Virus record (IMG/VR): IMGVR_UViG_2778261139_000004
Coordinates: 1 to 39,211 of that record
Source of the DNA: a virus
Lineage: Duplodnaviria > Heunggongvirae > Uroviricota > Caudoviricetes
DNA length: 39,211 nt
Strand: one strand, 5' to 3'
The translations under genes were made by a program, and so were the position numbers. Under the pieces are notes generated by a model. It ran no database searches. It was not told the origin of the DNA and saw only the letters and a program-made list of their open reading frames with translations. Positions 1,054 to 36,479 of the stretch are shown in pieces (position 1 is the stretch's first letter; each line of letters starts with the position of its first letter).

Positions 1054-1078
1054 AAAAAATGCCCTCATGTCAGAGGGC
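1054..1078 (-). terminator. Putative intrinsic terminator directly upstream of the int start codon
   Basis: On the minus strand, GCCCTC-N6-GAGGGC (1061-1078) is followed by a T-tract (complement of the A-run at 1054-1060). It lies after the stop of the cargo membrane-protein gene. Confidence 0.4.
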
Positions 1079-5752: not shown

Positions 5753-6606
5753 GCACCATCCTGAAATGGGCGGGTAATAAAACCGCCATTATGTCCGAAC
5801 TGAAAAAACATCTTCCTGCTGGCCCGCGACTGGTTGAACCTTTCGCGGGTTCTTGTGCTGTGATGATGGCGACGGATTACCCCAGCTATCTGGTTGCGGA
5901 TATTAATCCTGATTTAATCAACCTCTATAAAAAGGTTGCTGCTGATTGTGAGGCGTTTATATCTCGCGCCAGAGTTTTATTTGAGGAAGCAAACAGGGAA
6001 GTGGCTTATTACAACATAAGGCAGGAGTTTAATTACTCCACTGAAATTACTGATTTCATGAAAGCAGTATATTTCCTGTATCTCAATCGTCACGGTTACC
6101 GTGGGTTATGTCGCTATAACAAAAGCGGGTATTTCAACATTCCCTACGGTAATTATAAAAATCCGTATTTCCCTGAAAAAGAAATTCGCGCTTTTGCAGA
6201 AAAAGCCCAGCGAGCAACGTTTATCTGCGCCAGCTTTGATGAAACGCTGGCGATGTTGAAGGCGGGGGATGTGGTGTATTGCGATCCGCCTTATGACGGT
6301 ACGTTTTCCGGCTATCACGCTGACGGCTTTACTGAAGATGACCAGTATCACCTGGCATCCGTTCTTGAACATCGGTCATCAGAAGGACATCCGGTCATTG
6401 TTTCTAACAGTGACACATCCCTGATCCGTTCGCTGTATCGCAATTTTACTCACCACTATATCAAGGTAAAACGCAGCATCGGCGTAGCAGCTGGTGAGAG
6501 TAAATCAGCAACAGAAATCATTGCTGTTTCCGGGCCGCGCTGCTGGGTGGGATTTGATTATTCGCGTGGCGTGGATAGTTCTGCCGTGTACGGAGTACGT
6601 GCATGA
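5749..6606 (+). CDS. dam: DNA adenine methyltransferase (Dam-like, N6-adenine)
   Basis: N-terminal LKWAGNK and FAGS motifs and the catalytic DPPY motif (VYCDPPYDG). ATGA start/stop overlap with the upstream gene. Confidence 0.85.
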
Positions 6607-10079: not shown

Positions 10080-11015
10080 ATGCAACTAACTTCTAAAATT
10101 ATCAGTAAGTTTAATTATAATAGATTAGCTTTCCAATTACTTTTAAATGAGGCCCCCAAAAAATATAAAGTTTATTATATTCCTAAACGTGGCGCAGGTT
10201 TTCGGGTGATAGCTCAGCCGACAAAGGAACTAAAAAACGTACAGAGATTTATAGTATCTTTGCTACAGCCAAAGCTGCCTGTTCATCATAAGGCAATGGC
10301 ATATGAATATAAAAAAAGTATTAAAGATAATGCATTGTTGCATAAAGATAATAATTATATTCTTAAAATGGATTTTCAGAACTTCTTTAACAAAATTAAA
10401 CCTGATATATTTTTCTCGAAACTTGAGAACACAGGGCTGAAATTGGATTCATTTGATGAGAATACCCTACGTAATTTGCTTTTTTGGCGTCCGGGAAAAA
10501 AGAGAAGTACAACGTTGATATTAAGTGTAGGGGCGCCAAGCTCACCATTTATTAGTAATTTTGTTATGTATGACTTTGACAAGAGTCTTGATGATTGGTG
10601 CCGTAACAATGGTATCACTTATTCAAGGTATGCAGATGATATAACTTTTTCAACTAATATTAAGGATATATTGTGCAGGGTTCCTAAGGTGGTAAAAAAA
10701 ATGTTGTCGCTCCATGTTCCCGGTCTATCAATCAATGAATCTAAAACAATTTTTACATCGATGGCTCATAATCGGCACGTGACTGGTGTAACACTTACAC
10801 CTCAGGGCAATTTATCAATTGGTCGCGATCGTAAAAGGATGCTGTTTGCAAAGATTCATAAATATTCTTTGGGACTCTTATCTTCCGAAGAAATAAATAA
10901 AACCAAAGGGATGATTGCGTTTGCAAATTATTTGGAGGGTGATTTTTTATTAAGGTTACAAAAAAAATATGGTTGTGAGTTAATAACTAAGTTCCTGATG
11001 GAAGGAAACAAATAA
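10080..11015 (+). CDS. Retron-type reverse transcriptase
   Basis: 311 aa with the RT active-site motif YADD (SRYADDITFS), an upstream GAPSSP motif, and the retron-typical VTG motif (NRHVTGV) downstream. AT-rich cargo. Confidence 0.85.
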   Translation: MQLTSKIISKFNYNRLAFQLLLNEAPKKYKVYYIPKRGAGFRVIAQPTKELKNVQRFIVSLLQPKLPVHHKAMAYEYKKSIKDNALLHKDNNYILKMDFQNFFNKIKPDIFFSKLENTGLKLDSFDENTLRNLLFWRPGKKRSTTLILSVGAPSSPFISNFVMYDFDKSLDDWCRNNGITYSRYADDITFSTNIKDILCRVPKVVKKMLSLHVPGLSINESKTIFTSMAHNRHVTGVTLTPQGNLSIGRDRKRMLFAKIHKYSLGLLSSEEINKTKGMIAFANYLEGDFLLRLQKKYGCELITKFLMEGNK

Positions 11016-12649
11016 TGATAAATAAAATGAATTTAGAGACTTGCTATGTTGATTTTTTAGAGTTGGAATCACATGTGATAAACGAGGATTATTTGAAGGA
11101 GTCTGTTGAGCTTCAAAAGCTAATATCTACTTTAAATGAGAGTAAGTTTCATTTAAATAAAATAGGTATACATGATTTTAAACGGATAAGAGAACTACAG
11201 ATTTCTTTAGAAGATGATTTGACTGTTTTTGTCGGGGATAACGGATTCGGTAAAAGCACTATTTTGGATGCAATAGCAATTGTTTTGAGTTGGTTGAGAT
11301 CAAATATTGAAAAGGAGAGTAAGCCTGGTACTTATATTAAAAGCCATGAAGTTAATAACTCTGTTGATGTTGAGTATGCATCAATTGATGCAAATATAAA
11401 ACTCAAGGACTTTAATACCAGTATTTTGATTACTAAAGCGAAAGAGGGGGCATATTATTCTAGAAATAATGAATTGTTGGAGGTAAAAAAACTTGCAAGT
11501 ATTTATAGACTTGTGAATAAATATGTTGATAATGCAAGCTTGCCTTTGATGGCATATTATTCTATTGCGCGTTCTTATATAGGCGGCGGGGTTGATAGGA
11601 AAAGAAAAAATGCTAAAACTAAAACTGTATGGTCAAAATTCGATGTGTATGATGAAATCGAGTTTGACAGAAATGATTTTACCGATTTTTTTCAATGGCT
11701 TGTATTTCTTCATAACAGAGCTTCACAAGAGAAATTGAGTGAGTCACAAACGACAATCAATGCGTTATTTTCAGATATTCAGAGTTTGAAAGCAACATTA
11801 ACTCAACTATCTGCGATTGATAATATTGATTCAACAGTTATAAAAGGTTTAGAGCTTTCGCTTAAAGAAAAATTGAACTACATGAAATCTCTGCAATCAG
11901 GAGAACATAAGTTTAATAATGCAGTATCACTTTATGATAGTGTTATAAATACCATTCTAAAGTTCTTGCCTGAATTTCAGTGGATTAAGCTTGTTTATGG
12001 TGATGATGATTATAAGATTATCCTTAAAAAAGGAGAGGTTGAATTAGATATTCAACAGTTGTCTCAAGGTGAGAAAACTATATTTACTTTAGTTGGTGAT
12101 TTGGCTCGACGTTTAATTTTACTTAATCCAAATTTATCTAATCCTCTATTGGGATATGGGATTGTTTTAATTGATGAAATTGATTTGCATTTGCATCCGC
12201 AATGGCAACAGACAATTATTGAGCGTTTGACATCTACATTCCCAAATGTTCAATTTGTAATTACTACCCATAGCCCACAGGTTTTATCCACTGTTAGCTC
12301 TCGTTCAGTGCGTATTCTACAGGAAGTGGAAGTAGATGGTGTTAATGATTTGATAGTGTCTCACCCCGACTATCAAATAAAAGGTGTTAGTAATCAGGAT
12401 GCACTTTTATATGGAATGAGAACTGATCCTATACCCTCTACTAAAGAAAATGGTTGGCTTGAAGAATATAAAAAATTGGTTGAGCTTAATCGTTATAGCA
12501 GTGACGAGGCTCTTTTGTTAAGAGAAAAAGTTATTAAACATTTCGGATTAGACCATCCTTTAGTTCAAGAGTGTGATGATCTTATATCTGTTTTGGAGTT
12601 CAAAAATAAGATAAATCAGCACTTTTCTGGAAGTAAGGATGTAAAATGA
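11015..12649 (+). CDS. PtuA-like ABC/AAA-type ATPase (Septu-type effector partner of the RT)
   Basis: Walker A GDNGFGKST, Walker B VLIDEIDLHLHP, TTHSP motif. Start overlaps the RT stop. Confidence 0.8.
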   Translation: MINKMNLETCYVDFLELESHVINEDYLKESVELQKLISTLNESKFHLNKIGIHDFKRIRELQISLEDDLTVFVGDNGFGKSTILDAIAIVLSWLRSNIEKESKPGTYIKSHEVNNSVDVEYASIDANIKLKDFNTSILITKAKEGAYYSRNNELLEVKKLASIYRLVNKYVDNASLPLMAYYSIARSYIGGGVDRKRKNAKTKTVWSKFDVYDEIEFDRNDFTDFFQWLVFLHNRASQEKLSESQTTINALFSDIQSLKATLTQLSAIDNIDSTVIKGLELSLKEKLNYMKSLQSGEHKFNNAVSLYDSVINTILKFLPEFQWIKLVYGDDDYKIILKKGEVELDIQQLSQGEKTIFTLVGDLARRLILLNPNLSNPLLGYGIVLIDEIDLHLHPQWQQTIIERLTSTFPNVQFVITTHSPQVLSTVSSRSVRILQEVEVDGVNDLIVSHPDYQIKGVSNQDALLYGMRTDPIPSTKENGWLEEYKKLVELNRYSSDEALLLREKVIKHFGLDHPLVQECDDLISVLEFKNKINQHFSGSKDVK

Positions 12650-13329
12650 AATATCTATCTAGGCAAATGCCAGGGCCTTCCGTTCTTAATAAATTTGACT
12701 ATAGGAGGGATGATTGGAATTCCCTATCATCAAATGATAAAAAAGAAATATGGGAAGAAATAATAAAAATGCAAGGTAAATTATGTGCTTATTGCGAGAA
12801 AAAAATAGAGCATCATAAAAGTGGTGGCAAAAATAAAGTTGAGAGGCATATTGAGCATTTTTACAGGAAAAGTTATTACAAAAATTTAACTTTCGAGTGG
12901 TCTAATTTGTTTGGCTCATGTGGTGAGCCGCAAAGGTGTGGGTTTTATAAGGATAAGCAAAAATATAACGATGATGATTTAATTAAAGCTGATAGACAAA
13001 ATCCAGATGTTTTTTTCCATTTTTTGGAAAATGGTGATGTTCATATTAGAGAAGGCTTGAATGAGAAAGAACACAAAATGGCAGAGGTTACGTTAAGAGT
13101 ATTTAACTTAAACCCGTCCTCAGGAGGAGTCAAGGCGGAAAGAAGACGTGCAATAGAATTAAGCATGACATTAATAAAGGAACTGGTCGGATGTGCATCT
13201 CAGCTTATTGAATCAGGATGTGAAATTGAAGATGTTAGATCTATGGTCTTTGATGAGTTTAAAAAGAATGTAAAAGATAGATGCTTTACCACTGCGATAA
13301 AGCATGTTTTTGAGAATAGAATGCCTTAA
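12646..13329 (+). CDS. PtuB-like HNH-type nuclease
   Basis: CAYCEKKIEHH ... ERHIEHF ... SCGEPQRCG cysteine/histidine pattern consistent with an HNH zinc-finger nuclease. Overlaps the ATPase stop by 4 nt. Confidence 0.65.
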   Translation: MKYLSRQMPGPSVLNKFDYRRDDWNSLSSNDKKEIWEEIIKMQGKLCAYCEKKIEHHKSGGKNKVERHIEHFYRKSYYKNLTFEWSNLFGSCGEPQRCGFYKDKQKYNDDDLIKADRQNPDVFFHFLENGDVHIREGLNEKEHKMAEVTLRVFNLNPSSGGVKAERRRAIELSMTLIKELVGCASQLIESGCEIEDVRSMVFDEFKKNVKDRCFTTAIKHVFENRMP

Positions 13330-13352: not shown

Positions 13353-14384
13353 TTAATCTATATTATATTCTGAGAAATTGATAATATGCATCCCTATCCA
13401 CTGATTAAATTCATGGATTTTTTTTTGTAGAGGTACTAATTCATTTGTCACAAAAACCTTACTAGCTTTCTCCACATCCCCAAACCCCCCAACATTATTC
13501 GGCATAATCCCCATCATTTGCGGCGGCACACGGTGTGCCGCCATCATGTCGTCCCGGCTCACGTTCTTGATATTCAGAAATTCATCCTTCGCTGCAACTT
13601 CTGACAACGGGATGATCTGAAGCCCGTCCTTTTTGCCGTTAGGCGAGTACATAAACAAGTTACGGAAGTTGCCCGGTCCTTTGGCGCTTTTCATCGCGTT
13701 GCGGAGGTTGTTCACATCCTCCTGGTTCTGCGCGGCGTCAGTCATATACATGATGAAGCCTGCATGACTGCCGTTAATGTAATACTTGCGGCGGAACAGC
13801 GTGGCGGACTCGTTGAGCAGGGCTGACGGAATGGCAGAAAGATAACCGGGCAGGCCGTAGATCTCCTGGTTGATGTCCGGTTCCATCAGATGAAAAATGC
13901 TGCCTTTCGCGAACTGATACGGCTGGGTTGTCATACCGTATTGCACAAACCAGTAGGTATCCAGGTCTAACCCGCGTCGGGTGTATTTTGCCAGCGCAGG
14001 CTCAAGGGCGATAACTTCACCGAATCGGTTCGTGCGTTTCTCCAGGTAGGCGTTACCAAATACCAGATAGTCCAGCACAAAACGCGAAAAAGCCTGCTGG
14101 CTGAGAAGCGGGTGAGGGATGTAGGTGCTGGTCAGAATGTTGCATTTCACTGCAATTGGTGAACTGTGATGCACGGCAGCGCGGAAGGTGCGCGCCAGTC
14201 CGTCAAAGCTGACGGGAGGCTCATACCAGCGATCTGTCTGTACGCATTCCACATAGTCCAGCAGTTCGCGGCGGTCAAGTACTGGAATGGGATCACCGAA
14301 GCTGAATGCTTCGGCTGAAGCTTGGCTTTTATGCTGGATCTGGTTCGTCGCCGCAGCGCGTTTTTTTTTACTCTTTCCCATCAA
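13353..14384 (-). CDS. Q: Portal protein (P2 gpQ-like)
   Basis: 343 aa, syntenic with P2 Q immediately before the terminase ATPase gene; overlaps the P stop by 4 nt. Its 3' end is AT-rich. Confidence 0.85.
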   Translation of the reverse strand: MMGKSKKKRAAATNQIQHKSQASAEAFSFGDPIPVLDRRELLDYVECVQTDRWYEPPVSFDGLARTFRAAVHHSSPIAVKCNILTSTYIPHPLLSQQAFSRFVLDYLVFGNAYLEKRTNRFGEVIALEPALAKYTRRGLDLDTYWFVQYGMTTQPYQFAKGSIFHLMEPDINQEIYGLPGYLSAIPSALLNESATLFRRKYYINGSHAGFIMYMTDAAQNQEDVNNLRNAMKSAKGPGNFRNLFMYSPNGKKDGLQIIPLSEVAAKDEFLNIKNVSRDDMMAAHRVPPQMMGIMPNNVGGFGDVEKASKVFVTNELVPLQKKIHEFNQWIGMHIINFSEYNID

Positions 14385-16147
14385 AAAATCTCCACAATAT
14401 TGCTGGTATTGGCGGACTCGCCCTGCAGCGGTTCGTTAAACAGTGCGTGCATTGTTGCCCAGGCCAGATCGGCATGGCTGGCTTCTTCACTGCGGCTTGC
14501 TTCATAGGTCGGGCGGTTGCCGCTGGCGGTGGTTGCGCGACGGATTGCCATAAATGACTGCGCTATGTCGGTGTGTCCGGCGTCAAACTCCAGACGACGG
14601 TGACTGATAATGTCGTAGGCCTTGAGTACCAGGGCGTTTTTAACGTTGGGGTTGTAGACAAACTCCCGGACGGCTGGAAAAAACGCTTTCACGTTTTCAT
14701 AAACCCCGTGACCGACACCCGTCGAGTCGATGCCGATATAGGTCACGTTGTACTGTTCGGTCAGTTTTTTGATGGCGTCAGCCTGGGCGCGGAAGTCCAT
14801 CCCGCGCCACTGGTGACGCTCAAGAATGCGGAACTTACCGCCCGGCACGGCTGGCGGTGCCACCACCACGCATCCGGCGCTGTCGCCGTTTTGCGTACCT
14901 TTTGCCGGGTCATAACCGATCCACACCTCGCGCCAGCCAAACGGGCGCAGGGCCAGTGCATGAAAGTCGGTCCAGACTTCCCAGCTGTCCACCATGCACG
15001 CCTGCAGCTCGCTGAGCGGGAACACGGACGCGAGATCGTCCACGAACTCGCACATCAGCAGGTTCTGGTATTCGTCCGGGCTGTACTCCATGCGCAACTG
15101 GTCAAGGTCGAACAGGTTACAGCCGCCGCGCACCGCATCTTCCACGGTGACTATCTGGCGGTATTGCCCGTCTGCGCACAGCAGGCCGGGGGCCAGATTG
15201 CTATGGGACAGGTCGATGTCCACCTTGTCGGCTTTGTTGCGTCCACGGTTGAACAGCGCACCGGACCAGAACGGATAAGCACTGTGGGTCAGGCTGGATG
15301 GCGTGGAAAAATAGGTTTGTCGCCATTTTTTGTGAATAGCCATACCGGAAGCCACTTTGCGCAGCTCCTGGAATTTCGGTATCCAGAAATATTCATCCAG
15401 ATACAGGTTGCCGTGGTAACTCTGGGCCGTGCGGGCATTGGTGCCGAGGAAGTAAAGAGTGGCCCCGTTGGGAAGCACCATCGGATCGCCTTTCAGCTCC
15501 ACCTCCACTTCTTTGGCGAAGTCGATGATGTACTGTTTAAAGACGTGGGCCTGTGCCTTACTGGCGGAAAGGAAAATCTGGTTACGTCCGGTTAGCAGGG
15601 CGTCAATCAGGGCTTCACGGGCAAAATAGAAGGTCGCGCCGATCTGGCGTGACTTCAGCAGGTTGCGGATGCGGTTGGTTTTTCCGGCTTCCCACCAGTG
15701 GCGCTGGTAGTTGAACATGGAGGAATGGAAGATTTCTTCCAGCTTCTCAATCTGTTCATCGGTGAAAACATTCTTTTCCGGCTGACGGCGCGGGCCTTTG
15801 TTGCGGTTGGCGACGTTAGGGTTTAAGTCGGCTTCGTTGCCGCCATTGTTAAACTTGCCGATCCGCGCGTGGCGCTCCGACTGGCGCGCCAGCAGGTCAA
15901 TTTCTTTAAAGTCTTTCCCTTCTTTGTGCTCCTTCATGATGAGCTGGCAGTAGCGTGCGGCGGTGGTGAGCTGCATCTGATCCAGCGGCCCATAGTAACC
16001 CCACTTGTCGCGTTTTTTCCAGCTGTGAACGGTTGCAACTTTCTCGCCCAGCATTTCAGCAATGCGGGCTACGCGGTATCCCTGAAAGTACAGCAGCATG
16101 GCCTGCCGACGGGGATCGAGATCTGCGGATGTCAGTGTGGTGTTCAT
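14381..16147 (-). CDS. P: Terminase large (ATPase) subunit (P2 gpP-like)
   Basis: 588-aa ORF divergent from the O-N-M-L operon, in the P2 position. Confidence 0.85.
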   Translation of the reverse strand: MNTTLTSADLDPRRQAMLLYFQGYRVARIAEMLGEKVATVHSWKKRDKWGYYGPLDQMQLTTAARYCQLIMKEHKEGKDFKEIDLLARQSERHARIGKFNNGGNEADLNPNVANRNKGPRRQPEKNVFTDEQIEKLEEIFHSSMFNYQRHWWEAGKTNRIRNLLKSRQIGATFYFAREALIDALLTGRNQIFLSASKAQAHVFKQYIIDFAKEVEVELKGDPMVLPNGATLYFLGTNARTAQSYHGNLYLDEYFWIPKFQELRKVASGMAIHKKWRQTYFSTPSSLTHSAYPFWSGALFNRGRNKADKVDIDLSHSNLAPGLLCADGQYRQIVTVEDAVRGGCNLFDLDQLRMEYSPDEYQNLLMCEFVDDLASVFPLSELQACMVDSWEVWTDFHALALRPFGWREVWIGYDPAKGTQNGDSAGCVVVAPPAVPGGKFRILERHQWRGMDFRAQADAIKKLTEQYNVTYIGIDSTGVGHGVYENVKAFFPAVREFVYNPNVKNALVLKAYDIISHRRLEFDAGHTDIAQSFMAIRRATTASGNRPTYEASRSEEASHADLAWATMHALFNEPLQGESANTSNIVEIF

Positions 16148-16193
16148 GGCACAAACCTACAGCCTTGAATAAAGGCTTTCCCCGCCTGCGGTT

Positions 16194-16211
16194 TGTGTGG
16201 TTGTCGGTACA
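16194..16211. promoter_or_regulatory. TGT-N12-ACA element, candidate Ogr-dependent late promoter activator site in the P/O divergent region
   Basis: TGTGTGGTTGTCGGTACA in the 142-bp region between divergent P and O. Confidence 0.35.
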
Positions 16212-16289
16212 AATACCGCGCATTGTTTCACTGCCCCCATCACCGCAACCATAAGGCTCCAGTAAGTTTTTTCTAACGGAGCACGGCTC

Positions 16290-17139: not shown

Positions 17140-18198
17140 ATGAAGAAGAATACCCGCTTTGCTTTTAACGCTTACCTGCAGCAACTGGCACGTCTGAACG
17201 GTGTGGCAGTTGAAGAACTGTCCAGCAAGTTCACTGTAGAGCCGTCTGTGCAGCAGACGCTGGAAGACCAGATCCAGCAGTCCGCCGCTTTCCTGACGCT
17301 GATTAACGTCACGCCAGTGCCTGAGCAGTCCGGTCAGCTGCTGGGGCTGGGTGTTGGCAGCACCATTGCCGGAACCACTGACACCACCGCGAAAGAGCGT
17401 GAACCTGTCGATCCGACGCTGATGGTCGATGTGGAATACAAATGCGAACAGACCAACTTTGACACGGTGCTGACCTACGCGAAGCTGGACCTGTGGGCGA
17501 AGTTTCAGGATTTCCAGGTGCGTATCCGTAACGCCATCGTGAAACGTCAGGCACTGGACCGCATCATGATTGGCTTTAACGGCGTGAAGCGTGCGAAAAC
17601 CTCTAACCGTAGCGAAAACCCGCTGCTGCAGGATGTGAACAAAGGCTGGCTGCAGAAAATCCGTGAGGATGCACCGGATCACGTCATGGGCAGCACCATC
17701 ACGGGCGGTGAAACCACACCGGGTGCGGTGAAAGTCGGGAAAGGTGGCGAATATGCCAACCTGGACGCCGTGGTGATGGATGCCGTCAATGAGCTTATCG
17801 ACGTGGTCTACCAGGACGATGACGATCTGGTGGTGATTTGCGGTCGTGAACTGCTGTCTGACAAGTATTTCCCGCTGGTCAACAAAGAGCAGGAAAACAG
17901 TGAAAAACTGGCTGCCGATATGATCATCAGTCAGAAACGCATGGGTGGCCTTCAGGCCGTGCGTGCGCCGTTCTTCCCGCCGAATGCGCTGCTGATCACC
18001 CGTCTGGATAACCTGTCCATCTACTGGCAGGAAGACACCCGCCGCCGTTCAGTTATCGACAACCCGAAACGTGACCGGATTGAAAACTTTGAATCCGTTA
18101 ACGAAGCCTATGTGGTTGAGGACTACCGCTGCGCCGCACTGGTGGAAAACATCCAGATTGGTGATTTCAGCGCCGCCGCAGCCGAAACCGGAGCGTAA
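17140..18198 (+). CDS. N: Major capsid protein (P2 gpN-like)
   Basis: 352-aa ORF after the scaffold gene. Confidence 0.9.
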   Translation: MKKNTRFAFNAYLQQLARLNGVAVEELSSKFTVEPSVQQTLEDQIQQSAAFLTLINVTPVPEQSGQLLGLGVGSTIAGTTDTTAKEREPVDPTLMVDVEYKCEQTNFDTVLTYAKLDLWAKFQDFQVRIRNAIVKRQALDRIMIGFNGVKRAKTSNRSENPLLQDVNKGWLQKIREDAPDHVMGSTITGGETTPGAVKVGKGGEYANLDAVVMDAVNELIDVVYQDDDDLVVICGRELLSDKYFPLVNKEQENSEKLAADMIISQKRMGGLQAVRAPFFPPNALLITRLDNLSIYWQEDTRRRSVIDNPKRDRIENFESVNEAYVVEDYRCAALVENIQIGDFSAAAAETGA

Positions 18199-20887: not shown

Positions 20888-21281
20888 AGCAGTGCCTTAT
20901 GTCCGCAATAACCCGGACAAACTGCATCTGTTTGTGGATAACGGTTCGCTGGTTGCCACGGGGGCCAGCTCCATGTCATGGGAGTACCGCTATACCCTGA
21001 ACGTGGTGATTGAGGATTTCAGCGGCGACCAGAATCTGCTGATGGCCCCGGTTTTGCTGTGGCTGCGGGATAATCAGCCTGATGCCATCAATAACCCGGC
21101 GTTACGGGAAAAGTTATTCACCTTTGAGGTGGATATTCTGCGCAATGATGTCTGTGATATCAGCCTTAACCTGCAACTGACGGAGCGTGTGCTGGTCAGC
21201 ACTGATGGCAGTGTGTCGAGTGTTGAAGCTGTAGCGGAACCCGATGAACCTGAAGAAATGTGGACGGTGAAACGTGGCTGA
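20850..21281 (+). CDS. R: Tail completion protein R (P2 gpR-like)
   Basis: GTG start at 20850 preceded by AGGAG; the N-terminus (NKPQSLRHALNKAV ... FVDNGS) resembles P2 R as recalled. Confidence 0.75.
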   Translation: MNKPQSLRHALNKAVPYVRNNPDKLHLFVDNGSLVATGASSMSWEYRYTLNVVIEDFSGDQNLLMAPVLLWLRDNQPDAINNPALREKLFTFEVDILRNDVCDISLNLQLTERVLVSTDGSVSSVEAVAEPDEPEEMWTVKRG

Positions 21282-21720
21282 ATTGCAGAAGGTGGACGAC
21301 TGGTTGAGTGCCTTGCTGGCGAATCTGGAGCCAGCCGCAAGAAGCCGTATGATGCGCCAGCTGGCGCAAGAACTGCGCCGGACACAGCAGCAGAACATCA
21401 GGATGCAGCGCAATCCAGATGGCAGTAGTTATGAGCCGCGCAGAGTAACAGCACGCAGCAAAAAGGGGCGCATCAAACGTCAGATGTTTGCAAAGCTGCG
21501 CACCAAAAAATACCTGAAAACTGCCGCCAGCGCCGATTCTGCCAGCGTGCAGTTTGAAGGTAAGGTGCAGCGCATTGCCCGCGTTCATCACTACGGCCTG
21601 CGTGATCGTGTTAGTCGTAAGGGGCCGGAGGTACGTTATGCTGAGCGGCGGCTATTGGGTTTCAACGATGAAACTACTCTTCAAATTAAAACAATTTTAT
21701 CTAGTTACTTAATGGGGTGA
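21274..21720 (+). CDS. S: Tail completion protein S (P2 gpS-like)
   Basis: 148-aa ORF with a GTG start overlapping the R stop; the last codons are AT-rich. Confidence 0.75.
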   Translation: MAELQKVDDWLSALLANLEPAARSRMMRQLAQELRRTQQQNIRMQRNPDGSSYEPRRVTARSKKGRIKRQMFAKLRTKKYLKTAASADSASVQFEGKVQRIARVHHYGLRDRVSRKGPEVRYAERRLLGFNDETTLQIKTILSSYLMG

Positions 21721-21806
21721 AGATTCACGCTTTTGCTAGCTTCTACAAGGTTTTATGCTTCTAAACACTGTATGTTTAATTTGACATATAACTATTTGTA
21801 CAAGCG

Positions 21807-23036
21807 GTGAGTATGAAAAAGCAAGATGAGTCCCCCAAAGCTGATAAATCAAATTTAGATAAAAGTGAGTCTGAACCACCAAAAGCGAACTCTATGGCAG
21901 ATGCCATGGCCATAGCGGCAGAGGTTGCTACGACAGCAACGTCAGTTCAAACATCAACCTTTGCAATTATCGCGGATTTTCTACGTTCAGGTGGTATAGA
22001 AAAACTAACTTCAAATGCTATCAAAAATTTAGAAATAAAAGTAAAGGGCCATTCTCAAGCGACAAGAACTACGGTATTGAGGAACCTGAAGACCTCTTTC
22101 AAAGAGGAGAATTTAGTTCTTGTTTTAGGTGCTGGCATTTCTTTAGATTACAGCATACCAACATGGAGTGAATTATTAAAGCGGCTATTGGCAAGAGCTT
22201 TGGATGATAAAAATGAAAATCAGAAAATGGTATCGGTTTTGTTTAATGAGGTTTTCGGTCCGAACGCACTCATAGCAGCCAGATATCTAAAACTACACTT
22301 TGATGGTATTAATACTCCCTTGGAAAAAGAAATTCAGCATGTTTTGTATGAATATTATCAGGAGGAAGAAAGCAGTACATTGAAAGCAATCAAGAAATTG
22401 TGCATATCGGCAGGCAAGTCACCAGGTCTAGATTCCGTTATTACATATAACTATGATGATATTTTGGAACAGACATTAACTAGAGCTGATGTTGGTATAA
22501 AGTATAAGGTGATTTCAAAGACGGGGCAGCATGCAAAAAATGATGAACTGCCGATCTACCATGTGCATGGCTATCTCCCATTGCAGGGGAAAGTTGAACT
22601 CGATGACACGCTAGTCCTTTCTGATGAAAGCTATCATAGGCAATACATGGATTTATACCATTGGAGCAATATGGTTCAGTTGAATAAATTCAAAGATGGA
22701 AATTGCCTGTTTGTTGGTCATTCCTTTACAGATCCAAACCTCAGAAGGTTGATGGATACAGCCAAAAAACTTAGAGGGAATGATTCTAAACCTCATTATT
22801 TAATTAAGTGTAGACATTCGAAAGAAGATGTGATTGCTAATATTCAAAGAATTGTTAGTGACTCAAGAAATGGATTTGATAATAAACTGAATATTAATGA
22901 GGATGCAATCGCGACCTCTCTTTTACAGACAGTGCATACTTTTGAAGAAATCGATGCTAATTCATTTGGCGTGAATGTTATTTGGATCGACTCTTACGAT
23001 GAGATTGCACCAATACTTAATGATCTAACACAATAA
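21807..23036 (+). CDS. SIR2-like (SIR2_2 / DUF4020-type) domain protein, putative NAD-depleting defence effector (cargo)
   Basis: 409 aa with the SIR2-like motifs VLVLGAGIS ... PTWSELL, ITYNYDDILEQ, IYHVHGYL, LVLSDESY and LFVGHSFTDPNL. AT-rich, inserted between S and V. Confidence 0.75.
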   Translation: MSMKKQDESPKADKSNLDKSESEPPKANSMADAMAIAAEVATTATSVQTSTFAIIADFLRSGGIEKLTSNAIKNLEIKVKGHSQATRTTVLRNLKTSFKEENLVLVLGAGISLDYSIPTWSELLKRLLARALDDKNENQKMVSVLFNEVFGPNALIAARYLKLHFDGINTPLEKEIQHVLYEYYQEEESSTLKAIKKLCISAGKSPGLDSVITYNYDDILEQTLTRADVGIKYKVISKTGQHAKNDELPIYHVHGYLPLQGKVELDDTLVLSDESYHRQYMDLYHWSNMVQLNKFKDGNCLFVGHSFTDPNLRRLMDTAKKLRGNDSKPHYLIKCRHSKEDVIANIQRIVSDSRNGFDNKLNINEDAIATSLLQTVHTFEEIDANSFGVNVIWIDSYDEIAPILNDLTQ

Positions 23037-23047
23037 TCTCCCTAAGT

Positions 23048-23065
23048 TGTGCCAGAAATGGCACA
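23048..23065. promoter_or_regulatory. TGT-N12-ACA dyad, candidate Ogr-dependent late promoter element for the V operon
   Basis: TGTGCCAGAAATGGCACA just upstream of V; could alternatively act as a terminator hairpin for the SIR2 gene. Confidence 0.35.
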
Positions 23066-23113
23066 GCTTTAAATCCTATCCTAATGACGGCAGCATTTGG
23101 CAATCTAATTGCC

Positions 23114-23692
23114 ATGAACGCTCAACTAACAGAAATCATGCGCCTTATCACCAATCTGATCCGCACTGGTGTAGTCACCGAAGTGGACCGGGAAAACTGG
23201 CTTTGTCGGGTGAAAACGGGCGACCTTGAAACCAACTGGATTAACTGGCTGACACTGCGCGCGGGCAAATCGCGCACCTGGTGGAAACCGTCTGTGGGTG
23301 AGCAGGTTGTGCTGTTCAGCCTTGGCGGCAATCTGGAAACCGCGTTTGCCCTGCCTGCGGTCTACTCAAACCAGTTTCCGCCACCTTCAGACTCTGAGGA
23401 CGGTAACGTGACGGAATACCCAGACGGTGGCTGGTTTGAATACGAACCCGCCACCGGGCGCTGGTATGTCAGGGGCATCAAATCCATGGTCATTGAGGCC
23501 ACTGACAACATCACCCTGAAAACCAGTGAGTTTGTACTGGAGGCTGACCGCACGCGCATTAACAGCGAAGTGGTGATCAATGGTGGCGTTACCCAGGGCG
23601 GCGGTGCAATGAGTTCTAACGGAATCGTGGTTGATACGCATCAGCATACAGGCGTCCTGAAAGGCGGTGATACCACCGGAGGCCCGGTATGA
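23114..23692 (+). CDS. V: Baseplate spike/assembly protein V (P2 gpV-like)
   Basis: N-terminus MNAQLTEIMRLITNLIRTGVV resembles P2 V as recalled (... IRTGI ...); the ORF track start at 23084 is upstream of the likely ATG at 23114. Confidence 0.85.
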   Translation: MNAQLTEIMRLITNLIRTGVVTEVDRENWLCRVKTGDLETNWINWLTLRAGKSRTWWKPSVGEQVVLFSLGGNLETAFALPAVYSNQFPPPSDSEDGNVTEYPDGGWFEYEPATGRWYVRGIKSMVIEATDNITLKTSEFVLEADRTRINSEVVINGGVTQGGGAMSSNGIVVDTHQHTGVLKGGDTTGGPV

Positions 23693-25541: not shown

Positions 25542-27022
25542 GCACAAAATTTTATACCCTGCTGACGGATATTGGCGCGGCGAAACTTGCCAGCGCCGCC
25601 GCGCTCGGTGTGCCTTTAAAAATTACCCATATGGCGGTGGGCGATGGTGGCGGAACATTGCCGACGCCGGACGCAAAGCAGAGTGCACTGGTAAATGAGA
25701 AACGCCGGGCTGCGCTGAATATGCTCTATATCGACCCGCAGAACAGCAGCCAGATTATTGCTGAACAGGTGATCCCTGAAAACGAGGGCGGTTGGTGGAT
25801 ACGTGAAGTGGGCCTGTTTGATGAGTCAGGGGCATTGATTGCCGTGGGAAACTGCCCGGAAAGCTATAAACCGCAACTAGCTGAAGGCAGCGGGCGCACC
25901 CAGACCGTGCGCATGGTGCTGATTACCAGCAGTACGGACAATATCACCCTGAAAATCGACCCTGCTGTAGTGCTGGCAACCCGTAAATACGTGGATGATG
26001 AAGTCCTGGAATTAAAGCTGTATGTGGATGACCAGATGAGAAACCACATTGCCGCACAAGATCCTCATACCCAGTATGCGCAGAAACATAATCCGACATT
26101 TACCGGAGAACCAAAAGCGCCGACGCCTGCAGCAGGAAATAACACCACGCGGATTGCGACCACTGAGTTTGTTCAGGCCGCTATTACTGCTCTGATTAAC
26201 GGTGCGCCAGCCACGCTGGACACACTGAAAGAAATTGCCGCAGCCATTAACAATGACCCGAAATTCAGTACCACCATTAACAATGCGCTGGCACTAAAAG
26301 CCCCGCTGTCGAGTCCGGCACTCACCGGAACGCCAACAGCACCTACTGCGGCACAGTCGGTCAACAATACACAGATTGCCACTACAGCTTTTGTGAAATC
26401 AGCGATTGCAGCAATGGTGGGTTCTGCACCTGCGGCACTGGATACACTGAACGAACTGGCGGCGGCATTGGGGAATGATCCGAACTTTGCCACGACAATG
26501 CTTAATGCGCTGGCAGGTAAACAACCGCTGGACAATACGCTTACCAATTTGAGTGGAAAGGATGTAGCTGGTCTTCTCGCATACCTTGGTTTGGGAGAAG
26601 GCTCTGCATTACCTGTTGGTGTGCCTGTTCCATGGCCTTCAGCCACACCGCCAACAGGCTGGCTGAAATGCAACGGTGCGGCATTTTCTGCTGAAGAATA
26701 CCCGGAACTGGCAAAGGCTTATCCAACAAATAAATTACCTGATTTACGCGGTGAGTTTATTCGTGGCTGGGATGATGGGCGCGGGGTGGATTCCTCTCGT
26801 GGTTTGTTGACATCTCAAGACCATTTATTTGCTTCTCATGGGCACTGGTTTGACAAGTACTATGCGCTAACAGGTTTTGATCCAACGGGAGGTCGGTTCG
26901 TAGTTACGGCTGATGCTTTCGGGGAACTTATTACGGCAAATTCAATTTCTACGGTATCGGTTGGTGGTTCTGAAACCCGGCCGCGCAACGTCGCATTTAA
27001 CTATATCGTGAGGGCAGCCTGA
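25538..27022 (+). CDS. H: Tail fibre protein H, with the C-terminal variable part inside the invertible segment
   Basis: 494 aa with Ala/Thr-rich internal repeats; the C-terminal region lies beyond the recombination site at about 26586. Confidence 0.85.
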   Translation: MSTKFYTLLTDIGAAKLASAAALGVPLKITHMAVGDGGGTLPTPDAKQSALVNEKRRAALNMLYIDPQNSSQIIAEQVIPENEGGWWIREVGLFDESGALIAVGNCPESYKPQLAEGSGRTQTVRMVLITSSTDNITLKIDPAVVLATRKYVDDEVLELKLYVDDQMRNHIAAQDPHTQYAQKHNPTFTGEPKAPTPAAGNNTTRIATTEFVQAAITALINGAPATLDTLKEIAAAINNDPKFSTTINNALALKAPLSSPALTGTPTAPTAAQSVNNTQIATTAFVKSAIAAMVGSAPAALDTLNELAAALGNDPNFATTMLNALAGKQPLDNTLTNLSGKDVAGLLAYLGLGEGSALPVGVPVPWPSATPPTGWLKCNGAAFSAEEYPELAKAYPTNKLPDLRGEFIRGWDDGRGVDSSRGLLTSQDHLFASHGHWFDKYYALTGFDPTGGRFVVTADAFGELITANSISTVSVGGSETRPRNVAFNYIVRAA

Positions 27023-27624
27023 TGAATAAAGCCGTATTAAATAGCGAACTCATTACTACAAAGGCAGGAAACATTACCGTTTATAATTTTGATGCTGAGA
27101 CGAAGGAATATCTTTTCACATCAACCGAATATCTTGTTGTGGGTGTCGGTATTCCGGCGTATTCCTGTTTAGATGCTCCTGGTACATATAAGGCTGGTTA
27201 TACTATCTGCCGTTCAGCAGATTTAAAATCATGGGAATATATGCCAGACCATCGCGGTGAAATCGTTTTTAGCACCGAAACAGGGGAATCAAAAGAAATC
27301 ACAGCTCCGGGTGATTACCCTGATAATACAACCACTATCGCCCCGTTAACGCCATACGATAAATGGGATGGTGAGAAATGGGTGACGGATACCGAGGCAC
27401 AGCACGGCGCAGCAGTAGATGCAGCAGAAGCACAGCGCCAGTCGCTGATTGATACTGCAATGGCCTCCATCAGTCTGATTCAGCTGAAATTGCAGGCCGG
27501 ACGTAAACTGACGCAGGCAGAAACAACCCGCCTTAACGCTGTGCTGGATTACATTGACGCGGTGACGGCAACAGATACCAGCACCGCGCCGGATGTCATC
27601 TGGCCTGAACTGCCGGAGGCGTAG
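27022..27624 (+). CDS. G: Tail fibre assembly protein (G-like)
   Basis: 200 aa, ends ... APDVIWPELPEA. Confidence 0.8.
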   Translation: MNKAVLNSELITTKAGNITVYNFDAETKEYLFTSTEYLVVGVGIPAYSCLDAPGTYKAGYTICRSADLKSWEYMPDHRGEIVFSTETGESKEITAPGDYPDNTTTIAPLTPYDKWDGEKWVTDTEAQHGAAVDAAEAQRQSLIDTAMASISLIQLKLQAGRKLTQAETTRLNAVLDYIDAVTATDTSTAPDVIWPELPEA

Positions 27625-28048
27625 GCCATTCAATATCTGGCGCACCGGAAGTATCGACCAGCTCCAGTGCGTCCAGATAATCCAGCCACAAATTATATTG
27701 CGCCAGTTCATCATCTTTCAGACGACCAATAGCGGCTTTACCGGGCCATTGCTTACTGTTCATGTATTCGTTGGCCTGGTTAATTAGTAGCTGTCTTTCT
27801 GATTCAGTAATTTCAATAAGTTCTTCATGCGTGGGTGGAGGAATATCTGCCCACGCAGGCAGCCCATCATCTCCGGCAATACGGATTTTTCCTTGTGGCG
27901 GTTCAGCCATAAACTCACTGATAATATTTTGATTTACTTCCTTAGCGTCTGATAAATCCCATCCCTCTGATTTATATTTATCAATCATATCCACAGGGAA
28001 AAAAGCATTATGCCTTGCGCTATAAACATATTCGTTCATATAAATCAC
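27596..28048 (-). CDS. Alternative tail fibre assembly protein (G') in inverted orientation
   Basis: 150 aa, ends ... APDIEWPTPP, paralogous to the G C-terminus; convergent with G. Confidence 0.75.
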   Translation of the reverse strand: MIYMNEYVYSARHNAFFPVDMIDKYKSEGWDLSDAKEVNQNIISEFMAEPPQGKIRIAGDDGLPAWADIPPPTHEELIEITESERQLLINQANEYMNSKQWPGKAAIGRLKDDELAQYNLWLDYLDALELVDTSGAPDIEWPTPPAVQAR

Positions 28049-28059
28049 CCTGAATAAAA

Positions 28060-28434
28060 TTACTCACCAACAGCCCACCAACTGTAATTCATCGATACCG
28101 TGTCGCTGGTTGATGACGTTCTGTAAGCAGAATTAAAGCCGGTTAACGTTGGGCCTTCTGCAGTCATCACGAACCCTCGCCCAGCGCCTAAAGGCGCACC
28201 GCCATCACCAGAATGAGTAAGCATGGCGCAGTCCGCTTTTTTGGGGAAAGGGATGCTGAATGTAATTCTCATTGTTTGCGTCGATAATGTCGGCGTAACC
28301 GCACCACGACCATATTGCAGGATTTTCCCGTTAGGTAATTTCATCCATCCATCACCACTGGCAAAAGAGGCCATGTCCGGTATCTGATTTTCCCCTGTCC
28401 CCACATCCCGTTTTGCCGCTTCTCCCAAACCAAC
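28060..28434 (-). CDS. Promoterless alternative tail-fibre C-terminal cassette (H'), expressed only after inversion
   Basis: Minus-strand reading frame running from the right crossover site to a stop at 28060; it shares the LGLGE junction with H. The Met in the ORF track is unlikely to be a real start. Confidence 0.55.
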   Translation of the reverse strand, partial: VGLGEAAKRDVGTGENQIPDMASFASGDGWMKLPNGKILQYGRGAVTPTLSTQTMRITFSIPFPKKADCAMLTHSGDGGAPLGAGRGFVMTAEGPTLTGFNSAYRTSSTSDTVSMNYSWWAVGE

Positions 28435-28500
28435 GTTTAAGAAAATGCAGAGATAATGGCTAACTGGCATCATCCCCGGTTTTTATTCAGGGGATTGATC

Positions 28501-29058
28501 ATGCTTATTGGCTATGTACGCGTGTCAACAAATGACCAGAACACCGATTTGCAACGTAATGCACTGAACTGCGCGGGATGTGAGCGGATTTTTGAGGATA
28601 AAATCAGTGGCACTAAGTCCGACAGACCGGGGCTGAAAAAACTGCTCAGGACACTATCGGCAGGAGACACGCTGGTCGTCTGGAAGCTGGACAGGTTGGG
28701 GCGCAGTATGCGGCATCTTGTTACGCTGATAGAAGAGTTGCGCCAGCGTGGCGTGAATTTCCGAAGCCTGACTGACAGTATTGATACCAGTACCCCAATG
28801 GGCCGTTTCTTTTTTCATGTCATGGGTGCCCTGGCTGAAATGGAACGCGAACTGATAGTTGAACGCACTATGGCAGGGCTGGCTGCAGCTCGTGCCAAAG
28901 GCAGAGTAGGTGGACGCCGTCCTAAGTTGACCACCGAACAGTGGGCACAGATTGGACGTTTACTCGAGGCCGGAGAATCAAGACAGCGTATTGCGCTGAT
29001 TTTTGACGTGGGCGTTTCTACCATTTATAGAAAATTTCCGGCGAATAAGAGCAATTAA
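28501..29058 (+). CDS. pin: Serine DNA invertase (Pin/Gin/Hin/Cin family)
   Basis: MLIGYVRVSTNDQNTDLQRNAL ... with the catalytic serine in YVRVSTNDQ, DRLGRS, and a C-terminal HTH; very close to e14 Pin as recalled. Confidence 0.9.
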   Translation: MLIGYVRVSTNDQNTDLQRNALNCAGCERIFEDKISGTKSDRPGLKKLLRTLSAGDTLVVWKLDRLGRSMRHLVTLIEELRQRGVNFRSLTDSIDTSTPMGRFFFHVMGALAEMERELIVERTMAGLAAARAKGRVGGRRPKLTTEQWAQIGRLLEAGESRQRIALIFDVGVSTIYRKFPANKSN

Positions 29059-29115: not shown

Positions 29116-29133
29116 TGTGTGAATAACGGCACA
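29116..29133. promoter_or_regulatory. TGT-N12-ACA element, candidate Ogr-dependent late promoter for the FI operon
   Basis: TGTGTGAATAACGGCACA about 75 bp upstream of the FI ATG, which has CAGGAGG as its Shine-Dalgarno. Confidence 0.35.
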
Positions 29134-29209
29134 ACTGCGATTAGCTGTTTGTCAGGCACAATCACTTCAACATAGGGCGAAGCCTAATCCAATCAGGAGG
29201 TTCGCCACT

Positions 29210-36137: not shown

Positions 36138-36356
36138 ATGATGATTTGCCCACTGTGTGGAAGTGCCGCCCATACTCGCAGCAGTTTTCAGGTATCTTCA
36201 TTGACCAAAGAGCGTTACAACCAGTGCCAGAACATTAACTGCAGCCATACTTTTGTTACCCATGAAACTTTTGTTCGTTCGATTGCAACGCCAAAAGAGT
36301 CAAATCCGGTTCAGCCGCATCCAATGAAATCAGGACAGGTGGCGCTCTCTCTTTGA
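36138..36356 (+). CDS. ogr: Ogr/Delta-type zinc-finger late transcription activator
   Basis: CPLCG ... C-x2-C zinc finger (MMICPLCGSAAHTRS ... CQNINCSHTF), resembling P2 Ogr; last prophage gene. Confidence 0.8.
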   Translation: MMICPLCGSAAHTRSSFQVSSLTKERYNQCQNINCSHTFVTHETFVRSIATPKESNPVQPHPMKSGQVALSL

Positions 36357-36436
36357 CGCTGCCGCCAATTTGTCGCCATCATTAAAAAACAGTGCTTCTA
36401 ACATCATGATTTTAAAAGGAATAAATTTCAGGCAAC

Positions 36437-36479
36437 AAAAAACCCATCAACCTTGAACCGAAATGGCGGGGTTGATGGG
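36437..36479 (-). terminator. Possible intrinsic terminator downstream of ybjL, at the prophage/host junction
   Basis: On the minus strand, CCCATCAACC ... GGTTGATGGG (10-bp arms) followed by a T-run; the loop is long and the element lies about 110 nt past the ybjL stop. Confidence 0.3.

What the first reader, a model, noticed from the sequence alone, without database searches (positions are those of the whole stretch)
16194..16211. TGT-N12-ACA dyads at all three late-operon junctions; two cargo islands sit beside them
TGT-N12-ACA, the dyad I recall as the Ogr-dependent late promoter element, occurs at 16194-16211 (P/O divergent region), 23048-23065 (upstream of V, immediately after the SIR2 gene) and 29116-29133 (upstream of FI, immediately after the invertase). 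Cargo is therefore inserted upstream of these elements without displacing them. The motif is short and will occur by chance several times in a window this size, so position is the only evidence.
Basis: partly seen in the sequence, partly recalled or inferred. Interest (0 to 1): 0.35.

Follow-up and report, generated by a model that had tools for sequence, protein, structure and literature searches.

The report
Ogr-type late promoters beside cargo hotspots
The three short inverted repeats are very likely the real activator sites of this P2-family prophage's late promoters, sitting next to two already known gene-swapping hotspots, so the finding is correct but ordinary.

Summary
The window is a 186/Fels-2-like P2-family prophage with its own Ogr homologue. 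TGT-N12-ACA occurs at the three stated coordinates. It is not enriched overall: 11 matches against 10.5 expected.

The three junction copies are nevertheless real sites.
- Only 0.076 copies are expected in the 370 bp of late-operon junctions (P = 7e-5 for three or more).
- They are the three best window hits of a matrix built only from relatives' sites that are unlike the window's own.
- An exact dyad is kept in 79 of 79 V loci and 80 of 80 FI loci of relatives, whatever lies upstream.
- The geometry matches phage P2's annotated activator sites and transcript starts. The dyad centre lies about 55 bp from the start, and 40-41 bp separate the dyad from a -10 of form nAnnnT.

The P/O dyad is one shared site for two divergent promoters. 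V, and by inference P, appear to be leaderless.

The S-V and G-FI junctions are the published orf30 and Z/fun moron regions. One refinement: the pV promoter varies one-to-one with the cargo, so the whole S-V spacer is swapped as a unit. Low novelty.

The parts
16194..16211 (.). Shared activator dyad (TGTGTGGTTGTCGGTACA) for the divergent late promoters pP (leftward) and pO (rightward).
   Evidence: Exact match. Second-best hit in the window of the matrix built from relatives' sites, 21.2 bits. Kept in Fels-2, SEN8 and ST512-KPC3phi13.6 at 55.5 bp from the P ATG, and in vB_YenM_31.17 at 56.5 bp. The P2 record annotates one activator site for both pO and pP; my reading of it, TGT-N12-CCA at 3063-3080, lies 55.5 bp from each annotated transcript start.
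16154..16159 (-). Predicted -10 of pP (TAGGTT). Its last T is 40 nt from the dyad. The predicted start is 16147, which is the A of the P start codon, so the P message would be leaderless.
   Evidence: Read from the sequence. Spacing is the same as at the P2 pP start annotated in the record. Fels-2, SEN8 and ST512-KPC3phi13.6 have TATGTT in the same register. The transcript start is inferred, not measured.
16247..16252 (+). Predicted -10 of pO (AACCAT), 41 nt from the dyad. Predicted start about 16258-16259, giving a leader of about 31 nt with GGAG before the O ATG at 16290.
   Evidence: AAACAT or AACCAT conserved in relatives. Geometry follows P2 pO.
23048..23065 (.). pV activator dyad (TGTGCCAGAAATGGCACA), 11 bp after the SIR2 stop codon.
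   Evidence: Matrix score 18.6 bits. 79 of 79 related V loci keep an exact dyad 54.5-57.5 bp from the V ATG, across 17 otherwise unrelated promoter versions. A SIR2 cassette only 75% identical keeps the dyad 56.5 bp from the ATG.
23101..23106 (+). Predicted -10 of pV (CAATCT). Predicted start 23113/23114, which is the V start codon at 23114, so the V message would be leaderless. The ORF start at 23084 is probably not used.
   Evidence: Window GCAATCT-N7-ATG matches P2 GCAATCT-N7-ATG, where the record places the V transcript start on the first base of the V coding sequence. tblastn matches of relatives begin at residue 11 of the long ORF. PGAP calls the homologous V gene from this ATG. Conserved A and T columns lie 12 and 7 nt before the ATG.
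29116..29133 (.). pF activator dyad (TGTGTGAATAACGGCACA), 57 bp after the invertase stop codon.
   Evidence: Best matrix hit in the window, 22.5 bits. 80 of 80 related FI loci keep an exact dyad, mostly 78.5-85.5 bp from the FI ATG.
29168..29173 (+). Predicted -10 of pF (CAACAT), with its last T 40 nt from the dyad. Predicted start about 29180, giving a leader of about 30 nt with AGGAGG.
   Evidence: The block GAACATAGG / CAACATAGG / TACCATGG is conserved at a fixed 40-nt spacing in 18 non-redundant promoter versions.
36138..36356 (+). Gene for the Ogr-family zinc-finger late activator (72 aa).
   Evidence: Pfam Ogr_Delta, E = 7e-22. CX2CX22CX4C motif. 51% identical to P2 Ogr over 72 of 72 residues.
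21807..23036 (+). SIR2-domain cargo gene in the S-V (orf30) moron region.
   Evidence: Pfam SIR2_2. PADLOC LmuA-like and ThsA-like hits. GC 37-39% against 55-60% in the late genes. No near match in the phage collection, and full-length in only 4 of 5426 complete E. coli genomes. In relatives the S-V gap ranges from 68 to 2229 bp.
26574..29058 (.). Invertible tail-fibre segment (inverted repeats at 26574-26600 and 28419-28445) plus its serine invertase gene (28456-29058), in the G-FI (Z/fun) variable region.
   Evidence: 28 of 64 relatives carry the invertase here, 13 of 64 have no insert, and the rest carry other inserts.

Best explanation
The three dyads are the upstream activator sites of the four late promoters (pP and pO sharing one, pV, pF) of a P2-family prophage.

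Proposed mechanism: late in lytic growth the phage's 72-aa zinc-finger activator, an Ogr homologue, acts through a TGT-N12-ACA site centred about 55 bp upstream of each start. It recruits sigma-70 RNA polymerase to promoters that have a weak -10 (nAnnnT) exactly 40-41 bp downstream of the dyad and no recognisable -35. This switches on the head, lysis and tail operons.

The P/O dyad is symmetric and serves both directions. V is translated from a leaderless message, and in this lineage P probably is too.

The S-V and G-FI junctions lie between operons and so tolerate insertions. They are the known orf30 and Z/fun moron regions. At S-V the whole spacer, promoter included, is exchanged by recombination in the flanking conserved genes. 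Selection keeps only the dyad, the spacing and the -10.

Shown here: sequence, position, conservation and the presence of the activator gene. Inferred: activator binding, transcript starts and leaderless translation.
For: - Motif and positions.
- Positional enrichment: P = 7e-5.
- Independent matrix: built from 33 non-redundant sites of relatives that are unlike the window's own. Its three best window hits are exactly these sites (22.5, 21.2 and 18.6-20.2 bits), against a 95th percentile of 17.3 for the best score in shuffled windows.
- Conservation: an exact dyad in 79 of 79 V loci and 80 of 80 FI loci. The P/O dyad is kept in Fels-2, SEN8, ST512-KPC3phi13.6 and vB_YenM_31.17.
- Natural mutagenesis: between promoter versions only TTGT-N12-ACAA, the -10 A and T columns and the spacing survive. 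The 66 bp upstream of the V ATG differ by 68%, against 5% for the first 66 bp of V.
- Geometry: identical to the activator sites and transcript starts annotated in the P2 reference record.
- Activator gene.
- Literature: TGT-N12-ACA is the consensus of the four Ogr-dependent P2 late promoters (PMC3931495).
- Hotspots.
Against: - No transcript, binding or reporter data exist for this phage. All starts are predicted from spacing.
- The bare motif is not enriched in the window.
- Single matrix scores overlap the extreme tail of the shuffles (largest shuffled score 21.5).
- P2's own sites are imperfect: TGT-N12-CCA at P/O and pF, and TGT-N11-ACA at pV. The consensus is therefore loose.
- A leaderless terminase message is unusual. 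It rests only on geometry and on there being no alternative start codon.
Confidence: 0.9

Rival explanations
1. The three dyads are chance occurrences of a short, degenerate motif that happen to fall in intergenic DNA.
For: The window holds 11 matches against 10.5 expected. Other copies lie in coding or AT-rich DNA with low matrix scores. The 16136 copy appears to be such a case.
Against: P = 7e-5 for three or more in the junctions and 1.4e-5 for one in each. The dyad is kept exactly in 159 of 159 related loci while the surrounding sequence is randomised. The register is the same as at the sites annotated in the P2 record.
Confidence: 0.02
2. The palindromes act as RNA hairpins, either terminators for the upstream operon or cargo gene or processing sites, rather than as DNA sites for an activator.
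For: Several versions form good stems, such as TGTGCCA-GAAA-TGGCACA in the window and TGTATCAG-CA-CTGATACA in relatives without cargo. They lie just after the stop codon of the upstream gene.
Against: No T-run follows them, and the terminator scan finds nothing between 21600 and 23200. Many versions pair only through TGT/ACA. Hairpin formation was not tested by folding. The P/O copy lies between two divergent starts where no transcript ends. What is conserved is a fixed distance to the downstream -10 and ATG, not to the upstream stop codon.
Confidence: 0.03
3. The dyads are functional protein sites for a different regulator, such as host CRP, a satellite-encoded Delta-like activator only, or a recombinase that mediates cassette exchange.
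For: TGTG...CACA resembles CRP half-sites. The dyads mark the right edge of the swapped regions. From my own knowledge, P4 Delta uses the same sites in P2.
Against: The spacing is TGTG-N10-CACA, whereas the CRP consensus (my own knowledge) is TGTGA-N6-TCACA, two bases shorter. At S-V the mosaic boundary is at the V ATG and not at the dyad, so the dyad lies inside the swapped unit rather than at a crossover point. The phage encodes its own Ogr homologue.
Confidence: 0.04

Closest known systems
Phage P2 late promoters PP, PO, PV and PF (Ogr-dependent)
   Same: Same gene order and the same four operons. The dyad centre lies about 55.5 bp from the start. One site is shared by PP and PO. The V start falls on the V ATG. 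The activator gene lies after D.
   Different: The window's half-sites are exact (TGTG...CACA), whereas P2 has TGT-N12-CCA or TGT-N11-ACA. The predicted P leader is 0 nt here against 23 nt in P2. No terminator-like site was found between S and V here, whereas P2 annotates one after S. Nothing has been mapped experimentally for this lineage.
Coliphage 186 B-dependent late promoters and satellite P4 Delta-dependent Psid/PLL (from my own knowledge; not examined here)
   Same: Same activator family and the same type of upstream dyad. The window's immunity region is of the 186 type, with CI and CII.
The three moron regions of P2-like phages: TO region, orf30 region (S-V) and Z/fun region (G-FI)
   Same: Cargo sits in exactly these places: a retron I-A at 10080-13329 (TO), SIR2 at S-V, and the invertase module at G-FI. 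Hotspots within the P2 late genes are also reported in bioRxiv 10.64898/2026.02.27.708500.
   Different: This SIR2 cassette is rare: full-length in 4 of 5426 complete E. coli genomes and with no near match in the phage collection. I did not find the one-to-one link between cargo type and pV promoter version stated in the papers I read.

Membership tests
Ogr/B/Delta-dependent late promoters of P2-family phages | An upstream element of partial dyad symmetry with consensus TGT-N12-ACA | tested here: met
   Exact matches at 16194, 23048 and 29116. These are the top three hits of a matrix built from relatives. The consensus is as stated in PMC3931495.
Ogr/B/Delta-dependent late promoters of P2-family phages | Dyad centred about 55 bp upstream of the transcript start | tested here: inconclusive
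   Geometry fits. The -10-like hexamers lie 40-41 bp from the dyad, as at the P2 starts annotated in the record. No transcript starts are available for this phage.
Ogr/B/Delta-dependent late promoters of P2-family phages | Located in front of the P, O, V and F late operons | tested here: met
   Gene map. The dyads lie in the P/O, S(SIR2)-V and G(invertase)-FI junctions.
Ogr/B/Delta-dependent late promoters of P2-family phages | A cognate Ogr-family zinc-finger activator encoded by the same element | tested here: met
   Pfam Ogr_Delta, E = 7e-22. CX2CX22CX4C motif. 51% identity to P2 Ogr.
Ogr/B/Delta-dependent late promoters of P2-family phages | Transcription depends on the activator and on its contact with the RNA polymerase alpha subunit | not testable with these tools
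   Needs reporter fusions with and without Ogr, an rpoA109-type host, or in vitro transcription.
Ogr/B/Delta-dependent late promoters of P2-family phages | Conservation of the element in related phages | tested here: met
   79 of 79 V loci and 80 of 80 FI loci. Four divergent P/O regions also keep it.
Moron / accessory-gene hotspots of P2-like phages (orf30 and Z/fun regions) | Variable gene content between conserved core genes at S-V and G-FI | tested here: met
   The S-V gap ranges from 68 to 2229 bp with 17 content types. G-FI holds no insert in 13 of 64 relatives, the invertase in 28 of 64, and other inserts in the rest.
Moron / accessory-gene hotspots of P2-like phages (orf30 and Z/fun regions) | Atypical base composition of the inserted genes | tested here: met
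   The SIR2 region has GC 37-39% against 55-60% in neighbouring late genes. The invertase region deviates only mildly, at 46-51%.
Moron / accessory-gene hotspots of P2-like phages (orf30 and Z/fun regions) | The cargo confers a host or anti-phage phenotype | not testable with these tools
   Only domain-level hits are available: SIR2_2, and LmuA-like and ThsA-like models.

The most novel reading that the evidence does not exclude
In this phage lineage the promoter of an essential operon (pV) is part of the swappable cargo cassette. Each of 17 S-V cargo types, including the type with no cargo, has its own otherwise unrelated 66-bp promoter. The mosaic boundary falls exactly on the start codon of a leaderless V gene. 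The Fels-2-like branch also appears to make a leaderless terminase (P) message from the shared P/O dyad. If so, cassette exchange continually re-tests the minimal Ogr promoter (TTGT-N12-ACAA, 40 bp, nAnnnT, 7 bp, ATG), and cargo could tune late tail-gene expression.
Probability: 0.4. Interest if true: 0.35.

Novelty: new member of a known kind. Interest (0 to 1): 0.15.

Why it matters
The main value is for annotation. The result fixes the four late promoters, corrects the V start codon (23114, not 23084), and shows that the SIR2 gene and the invertase module occupy the classical orf30 and Z/fun moron regions. The comparative data also act as a natural mutagenesis of the Ogr-type promoter. Only the dyad, a 40-41 bp spacer and a minimal -10 are kept across unrelated promoter versions. 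That could guide design of Ogr-controlled expression cassettes and automatic annotation of P2-like prophages. It does not open a new biological question.

Tried and rejected
- Global enrichment of TGT-N12-ACA: none, 11 against 10.5 expected.
- First attempt at an extended motif had the wrong spacer length and gave 0 hits. The corrected pattern gives four sites against 0.15 expected, but it was derived after seeing the sites, so I did not rely on it.
- The fourth dyad at 16136-16153 as a second Ogr site or operator at the P start. It scores 15.1 bits, inside the shuffle range. It is lost in Fels-2, SEN8 and ST512-KPC3phi13.6 while the 16194 dyad is kept. Close relatives are too similar to be informative. 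I judged it probably chance.
- A near-dyad at 35849-35866 inside gene D (14.4 bits). Its position is not sensible and I did not pursue it.
- The TGT-N12-ACA at 21769-21786 in front of SIR2. It is not among the 16 best matrix hits (below 7.4 bits) and is too close to the gene start for the -55 geometry, so it is not a late promoter.
- CRP site: rejected on half-site spacing (my own knowledge of the CRP consensus).
- Terminator reading: the scan found none at S-V.
- The O-protein search of IMG/VR returned only 99-100% identical loci, which are uninformative for the P/O region. I used divergent GenBank phages instead.
- Three source papers were not held: Julien and Calendar 1995, and the Christie and Calendar 2016 review by DOI and by PMC id.
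- Rfam and tRNA scans found nothing relevant to the promoters.

Full report
**What the window is.** ORF listing and Pfam scans show a complete P2-family prophage with a 186-type immunity region. The map is:
- integrase 1-1068 (minus strand)
- CI 2941-3822 (minus strand) and CII from 4202
- gpA 6603-9017
- portal Q 13353-14384 (minus strand) and terminase P 14381-16147 (minus strand)
- scaffold O from 16290, followed by the head, lysis and tail-completion genes up to S (21274-21720)
- a SIR2_2-domain gene 21807-23036
- V, W, J, I, H and G
- an inverted copy of the tail-fibre tip and its assembly gene, 27596-28473 (minus strand)
- a serine invertase 28456-29058
- FI from 29210 through D
- an Ogr/Delta zinc-finger gene

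Host DNA follows on the right: RybB sRNA at 36434-36512 and an Asp-Al_Ex permease gene. The nearest sequenced phages are Escherichia phage 500465-1 and Klebsiella/Salmonella Fels-2-like phages.

**Check of the observation.** TGT-N12-ACA is present at the three stated coordinates. Position is another matter. The P/O, SIR2-V and invertase-FI junctions total 370 bp, in which 0.076 copies are expected. Three or more has P = 7e-5, and one in each junction has P = 1.4e-5. A fourth copy at 16136-16153, overlapping the P start codon, was missed.

**Independent test of the sites.** I collected the regions upstream of V and FI from 160 related IMG/VR contigs. Every locus with enough upstream sequence keeps an exact TGT-N12-ACA in the expected zone: 79 of 79 for V and 80 of 80 for FI. 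I then built a weight matrix from 33 non-redundant sites, each differing from the window's own sites at more than 8 of 30 positions. Scanned over the window, its three best hits are exactly 29116, 16194 and 23048 (22.5, 21.2 and 18.6-20.2 bits). The 95th percentile of the best score in shuffled windows is 17.3. The 16136 site scores 15.1, within the null range.

**Architecture.** The P2 reference record annotates activator-binding sites at 3057-3087 (shared by pO and pP), 10239-10266 (pV) and 17555-17583 (pF). It annotates transcript starts at 3016, 3127, 10308 and 17626-17628. Reading the P2 sequence, the P/O element is TGT-N12-CCA at 3063-3080. Its centre is 55.5 bp from both annotated starts. 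The V start coincides with the first base of the V coding sequence.

In the window the same ruler gives the following.

| Promoter | Dyad centre | Predicted -10 | Dyad to last T of -10 | Predicted start |
|---|---|---|---|---|
| pP | 16202.5 | TAGGTT, 16159-16154 (minus strand) | 40 nt | 16147, the A of the P ATG |
| pO | 16202.5 | AACCAT, 16247-16252 | 41 nt | about 16258 |
| pV | 23056.5 | CAATCT, 23101-23106 | 41 nt | 23113/23114, the V ATG at 23114 |
| pF | 29124.5 | CAACAT, 29168-29173 | 40 nt | about 29180 |

I aligned 16 non-redundant V promoters and 18 non-redundant FI promoters on the dyad. In the V set the only conserved columns are TTGT-N12-ACAA and the A and T of an nAnnnT hexamer ending 40 nt downstream. 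The FI set also keeps a conserved leader.

The window's GCAATCT-N7-ATG before V matches P2's GCAATCT-N7-ATG. Relatives' V alignments begin at residue 11 of the long ORF, and PGAP calls V from that ATG in a related prophage. The real V start is therefore 23114, not 23084.

For P, no upstream start codon exists, and the Terminase_5 domain begins at residue 11. A start of transcription at 16147 therefore implies a leaderless message. The same 55.5-56.5 bp distance from dyad centre to P ATG is kept in Fels-2, SEN8, ST512-KPC3phi13.6 and Yersinia phage vB_YenM_31.17. P2 and vB_YenM_42.18 have longer leaders. These starts are inferred, not measured.

**The activator.** The gene at 36138-36356 encodes 72 residues with CX2CX22CX4C. 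It matches Pfam Ogr_Delta (E = 7e-22) and is 51% identical to P2 Ogr without gaps. PMC3931495 states that the four P2 late promoters share TGT-N12-ACA and depend on Ogr. That Ogr works through the RNA polymerase alpha subunit is from my own knowledge.

**The fourth dyad.** 16136-16153 spans the P start codon. On the minus strand it reads TGTGCC-ATG-AAC-ACC-ACA. It is intact in near-identical relatives. Fels-2 and SEN8 have TGT...CCA there, and ST512-KPC3phi13.6 has lost the TGT half-site, while the 16194 dyad is kept in all of them. Together with its non-significant score, this points to chance, partly shaped by codons. A role as an operator cannot be excluded without binding data.

**The cargo.**
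- The SIR2 gene is AT-rich (37-39% GC against 55-60% for late genes). It hits the LmuA and ThsA SIR2 models in PADLOC. It has no near match in the phage collection and occurs full-length in only 4 of 5426 complete E. coli genomes.
- In relatives the S-V gap ranges from 68 bp, with no cargo and the dyad starting 3-4 bp after the S stop codon, to 2229 bp.
- The invertase belongs to an invertible tail-fibre segment bounded by 27-nt inverted repeats at 26574-26600 and 28419-28445.
- Among 64 relatives, 28 carry the invertase before FI, 13 have no insert and the rest carry other inserts.
- These two places, plus the region between gpA and Q (here a retron I-A: reverse transcriptase, PtuA-like ATPase and PtuB/HNH), are the three published moron regions of P2-like phages: TO, orf30 and Z/fun (PMC3091744; PMC6823313). 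Defence hotspots within the P2 late genes are also reported in a 2026 preprint.

At S-V the promoter is not an untouched landmark beside which cargo lands. The 66 bp from the dyad to the ATG fall into 17 clusters, and each cluster goes with a single gap length, that is, one cargo type. Between clusters these 66 bp differ by 68%, close to random, while the first 66 bp of V differ by 5%. The mosaic boundary is therefore the V start codon, and each cassette carries its own pV. All versions obey the same dyad, spacing and -10 rule. A SIR2 cassette only 75% identical to the window's shows the same pattern: the dyad half-sites are kept and the rest of the promoter is different. The simplest reading is exchange of the whole spacer by recombination in S and V, with purifying selection only on the functional promoter elements. 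FI promoters are less scrambled because they also carry a conserved leader and ribosome-binding site.

**Rivals.**
- Chance is excluded by conservation and position.
- A hairpin or terminator role is unlikely. No T-run follows the dyads, the scan finds no terminator at S-V, many versions pair only at TGT/ACA, and the conserved distance is to the downstream -10 and not to the upstream stop codon. I did not test hairpin formation by folding.
- A CRP site is excluded by half-site spacing (my own knowledge of the consensus).
- A recombination-site role is unlikely because the dyad lies inside the swapped unit.

**Verdict.** This is a new, unmapped instance of a textbook system, Ogr-type late promoters flanked by the classical P2 moron regions. 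Three small additions came out of the work: the shared P/O site, probable leaderless V and P messages, and the co-variation of promoter and cargo. Interest is low.

Noticed in passing
window 16136-16153: A fourth exact TGT-N12-ACA (TGTGGTGTTCATGGCACA) spans the P start codon, 58 bp from the shared P/O dyad. It is kept in near-identical relatives but lost in Fels-2, SEN8 and ST512-KPC3phi13.6, and its matrix score of 15.1 bits is within the null range. Probably chance, but an operator role has not been excluded.
   Followed up: yes
window 16147 (P start) and relatives L242-L245: The dyad centre lies exactly 55.5-56.5 bp from the A of the P ATG, and a TAGGTT or TATGTT -10 ends 7 nt before it. 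This predicts a leaderless terminase large-subunit message in the Fels-2-like lineage. P2 has a 23-nt leader.
   Followed up: partly
window 23084-23116: The longest V ORF starts at 23084. Homology, PGAP annotation of a relative and promoter geometry all point to the ATG at 23114 as the true, leaderless start.
   Followed up: yes
window 10080-13329: A retron type I-A module (reverse transcriptase, PtuA-like ATPase, PtuB/HNH; PADLOC E = 5e-131, 2e-193 and 1.5e-117) sits in the TO hotspot between gpA and Q, at GC 31-35%. Rfam found no msr/msd RNA at gathering threshold.
   Followed up: partly
window 1135-2860 (minus strand): Two AT-rich genes (GC 29-35%) between the integrase and CI match the PADLOC candidate defence pair PDC-M18B and PDC-M18A. 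This is a further cargo site inside the prophage.
   Followed up: partly
window 26574-26600 and 28419-28445: 27-nt inverted repeats (81% complementary) bracket the C-terminal part of H, G and their inverted alternative copies, next to the invertase. This is a Gin/Cin-type host-range switch.
   Followed up: partly
window 36434-36512 (minus strand): The host sRNA gene RybB (105 bits) lies about 80 bp after the ogr stop codon, followed by an Asp-Al_Ex permease gene. The prophage's right attachment site is therefore at or next to rybB. The att core was not determined.
   Followed up: no
window 35849-35866: A near-dyad (TGC-N12-ACA, 14.4 bits) lies inside gene D, about 290 bp upstream of ogr. It is probably chance.
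   Followed up: no
window 21769-21786: A TGT-N12-ACA copy in the AT-rich S-SIR2 spacer contains a perfect TTGACA. It has a low matrix score and is too close to the SIR2 start for the -55 geometry. It may belong to the cargo gene's own promoter.
   Followed up: no
window 2941-3822 (minus strand): The CI-type repressor ORF is 293 aa with two matched stretches of the Phage_CI_repr domain. This is longer than I recall for 186 CI (my own knowledge). The start codon or a duplication was not examined.
   Followed up: no
window 21720-23113: The simple scan found no terminator-like site between S, the SIR2 gene and V. In cargo-free relatives the dyad begins 3-4 bp after the S stop codon. O-operon transcripts may therefore read through SIR2 into the V operon in this lineage, unlike P2, which annotates a terminator after S.
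   Followed up: partly
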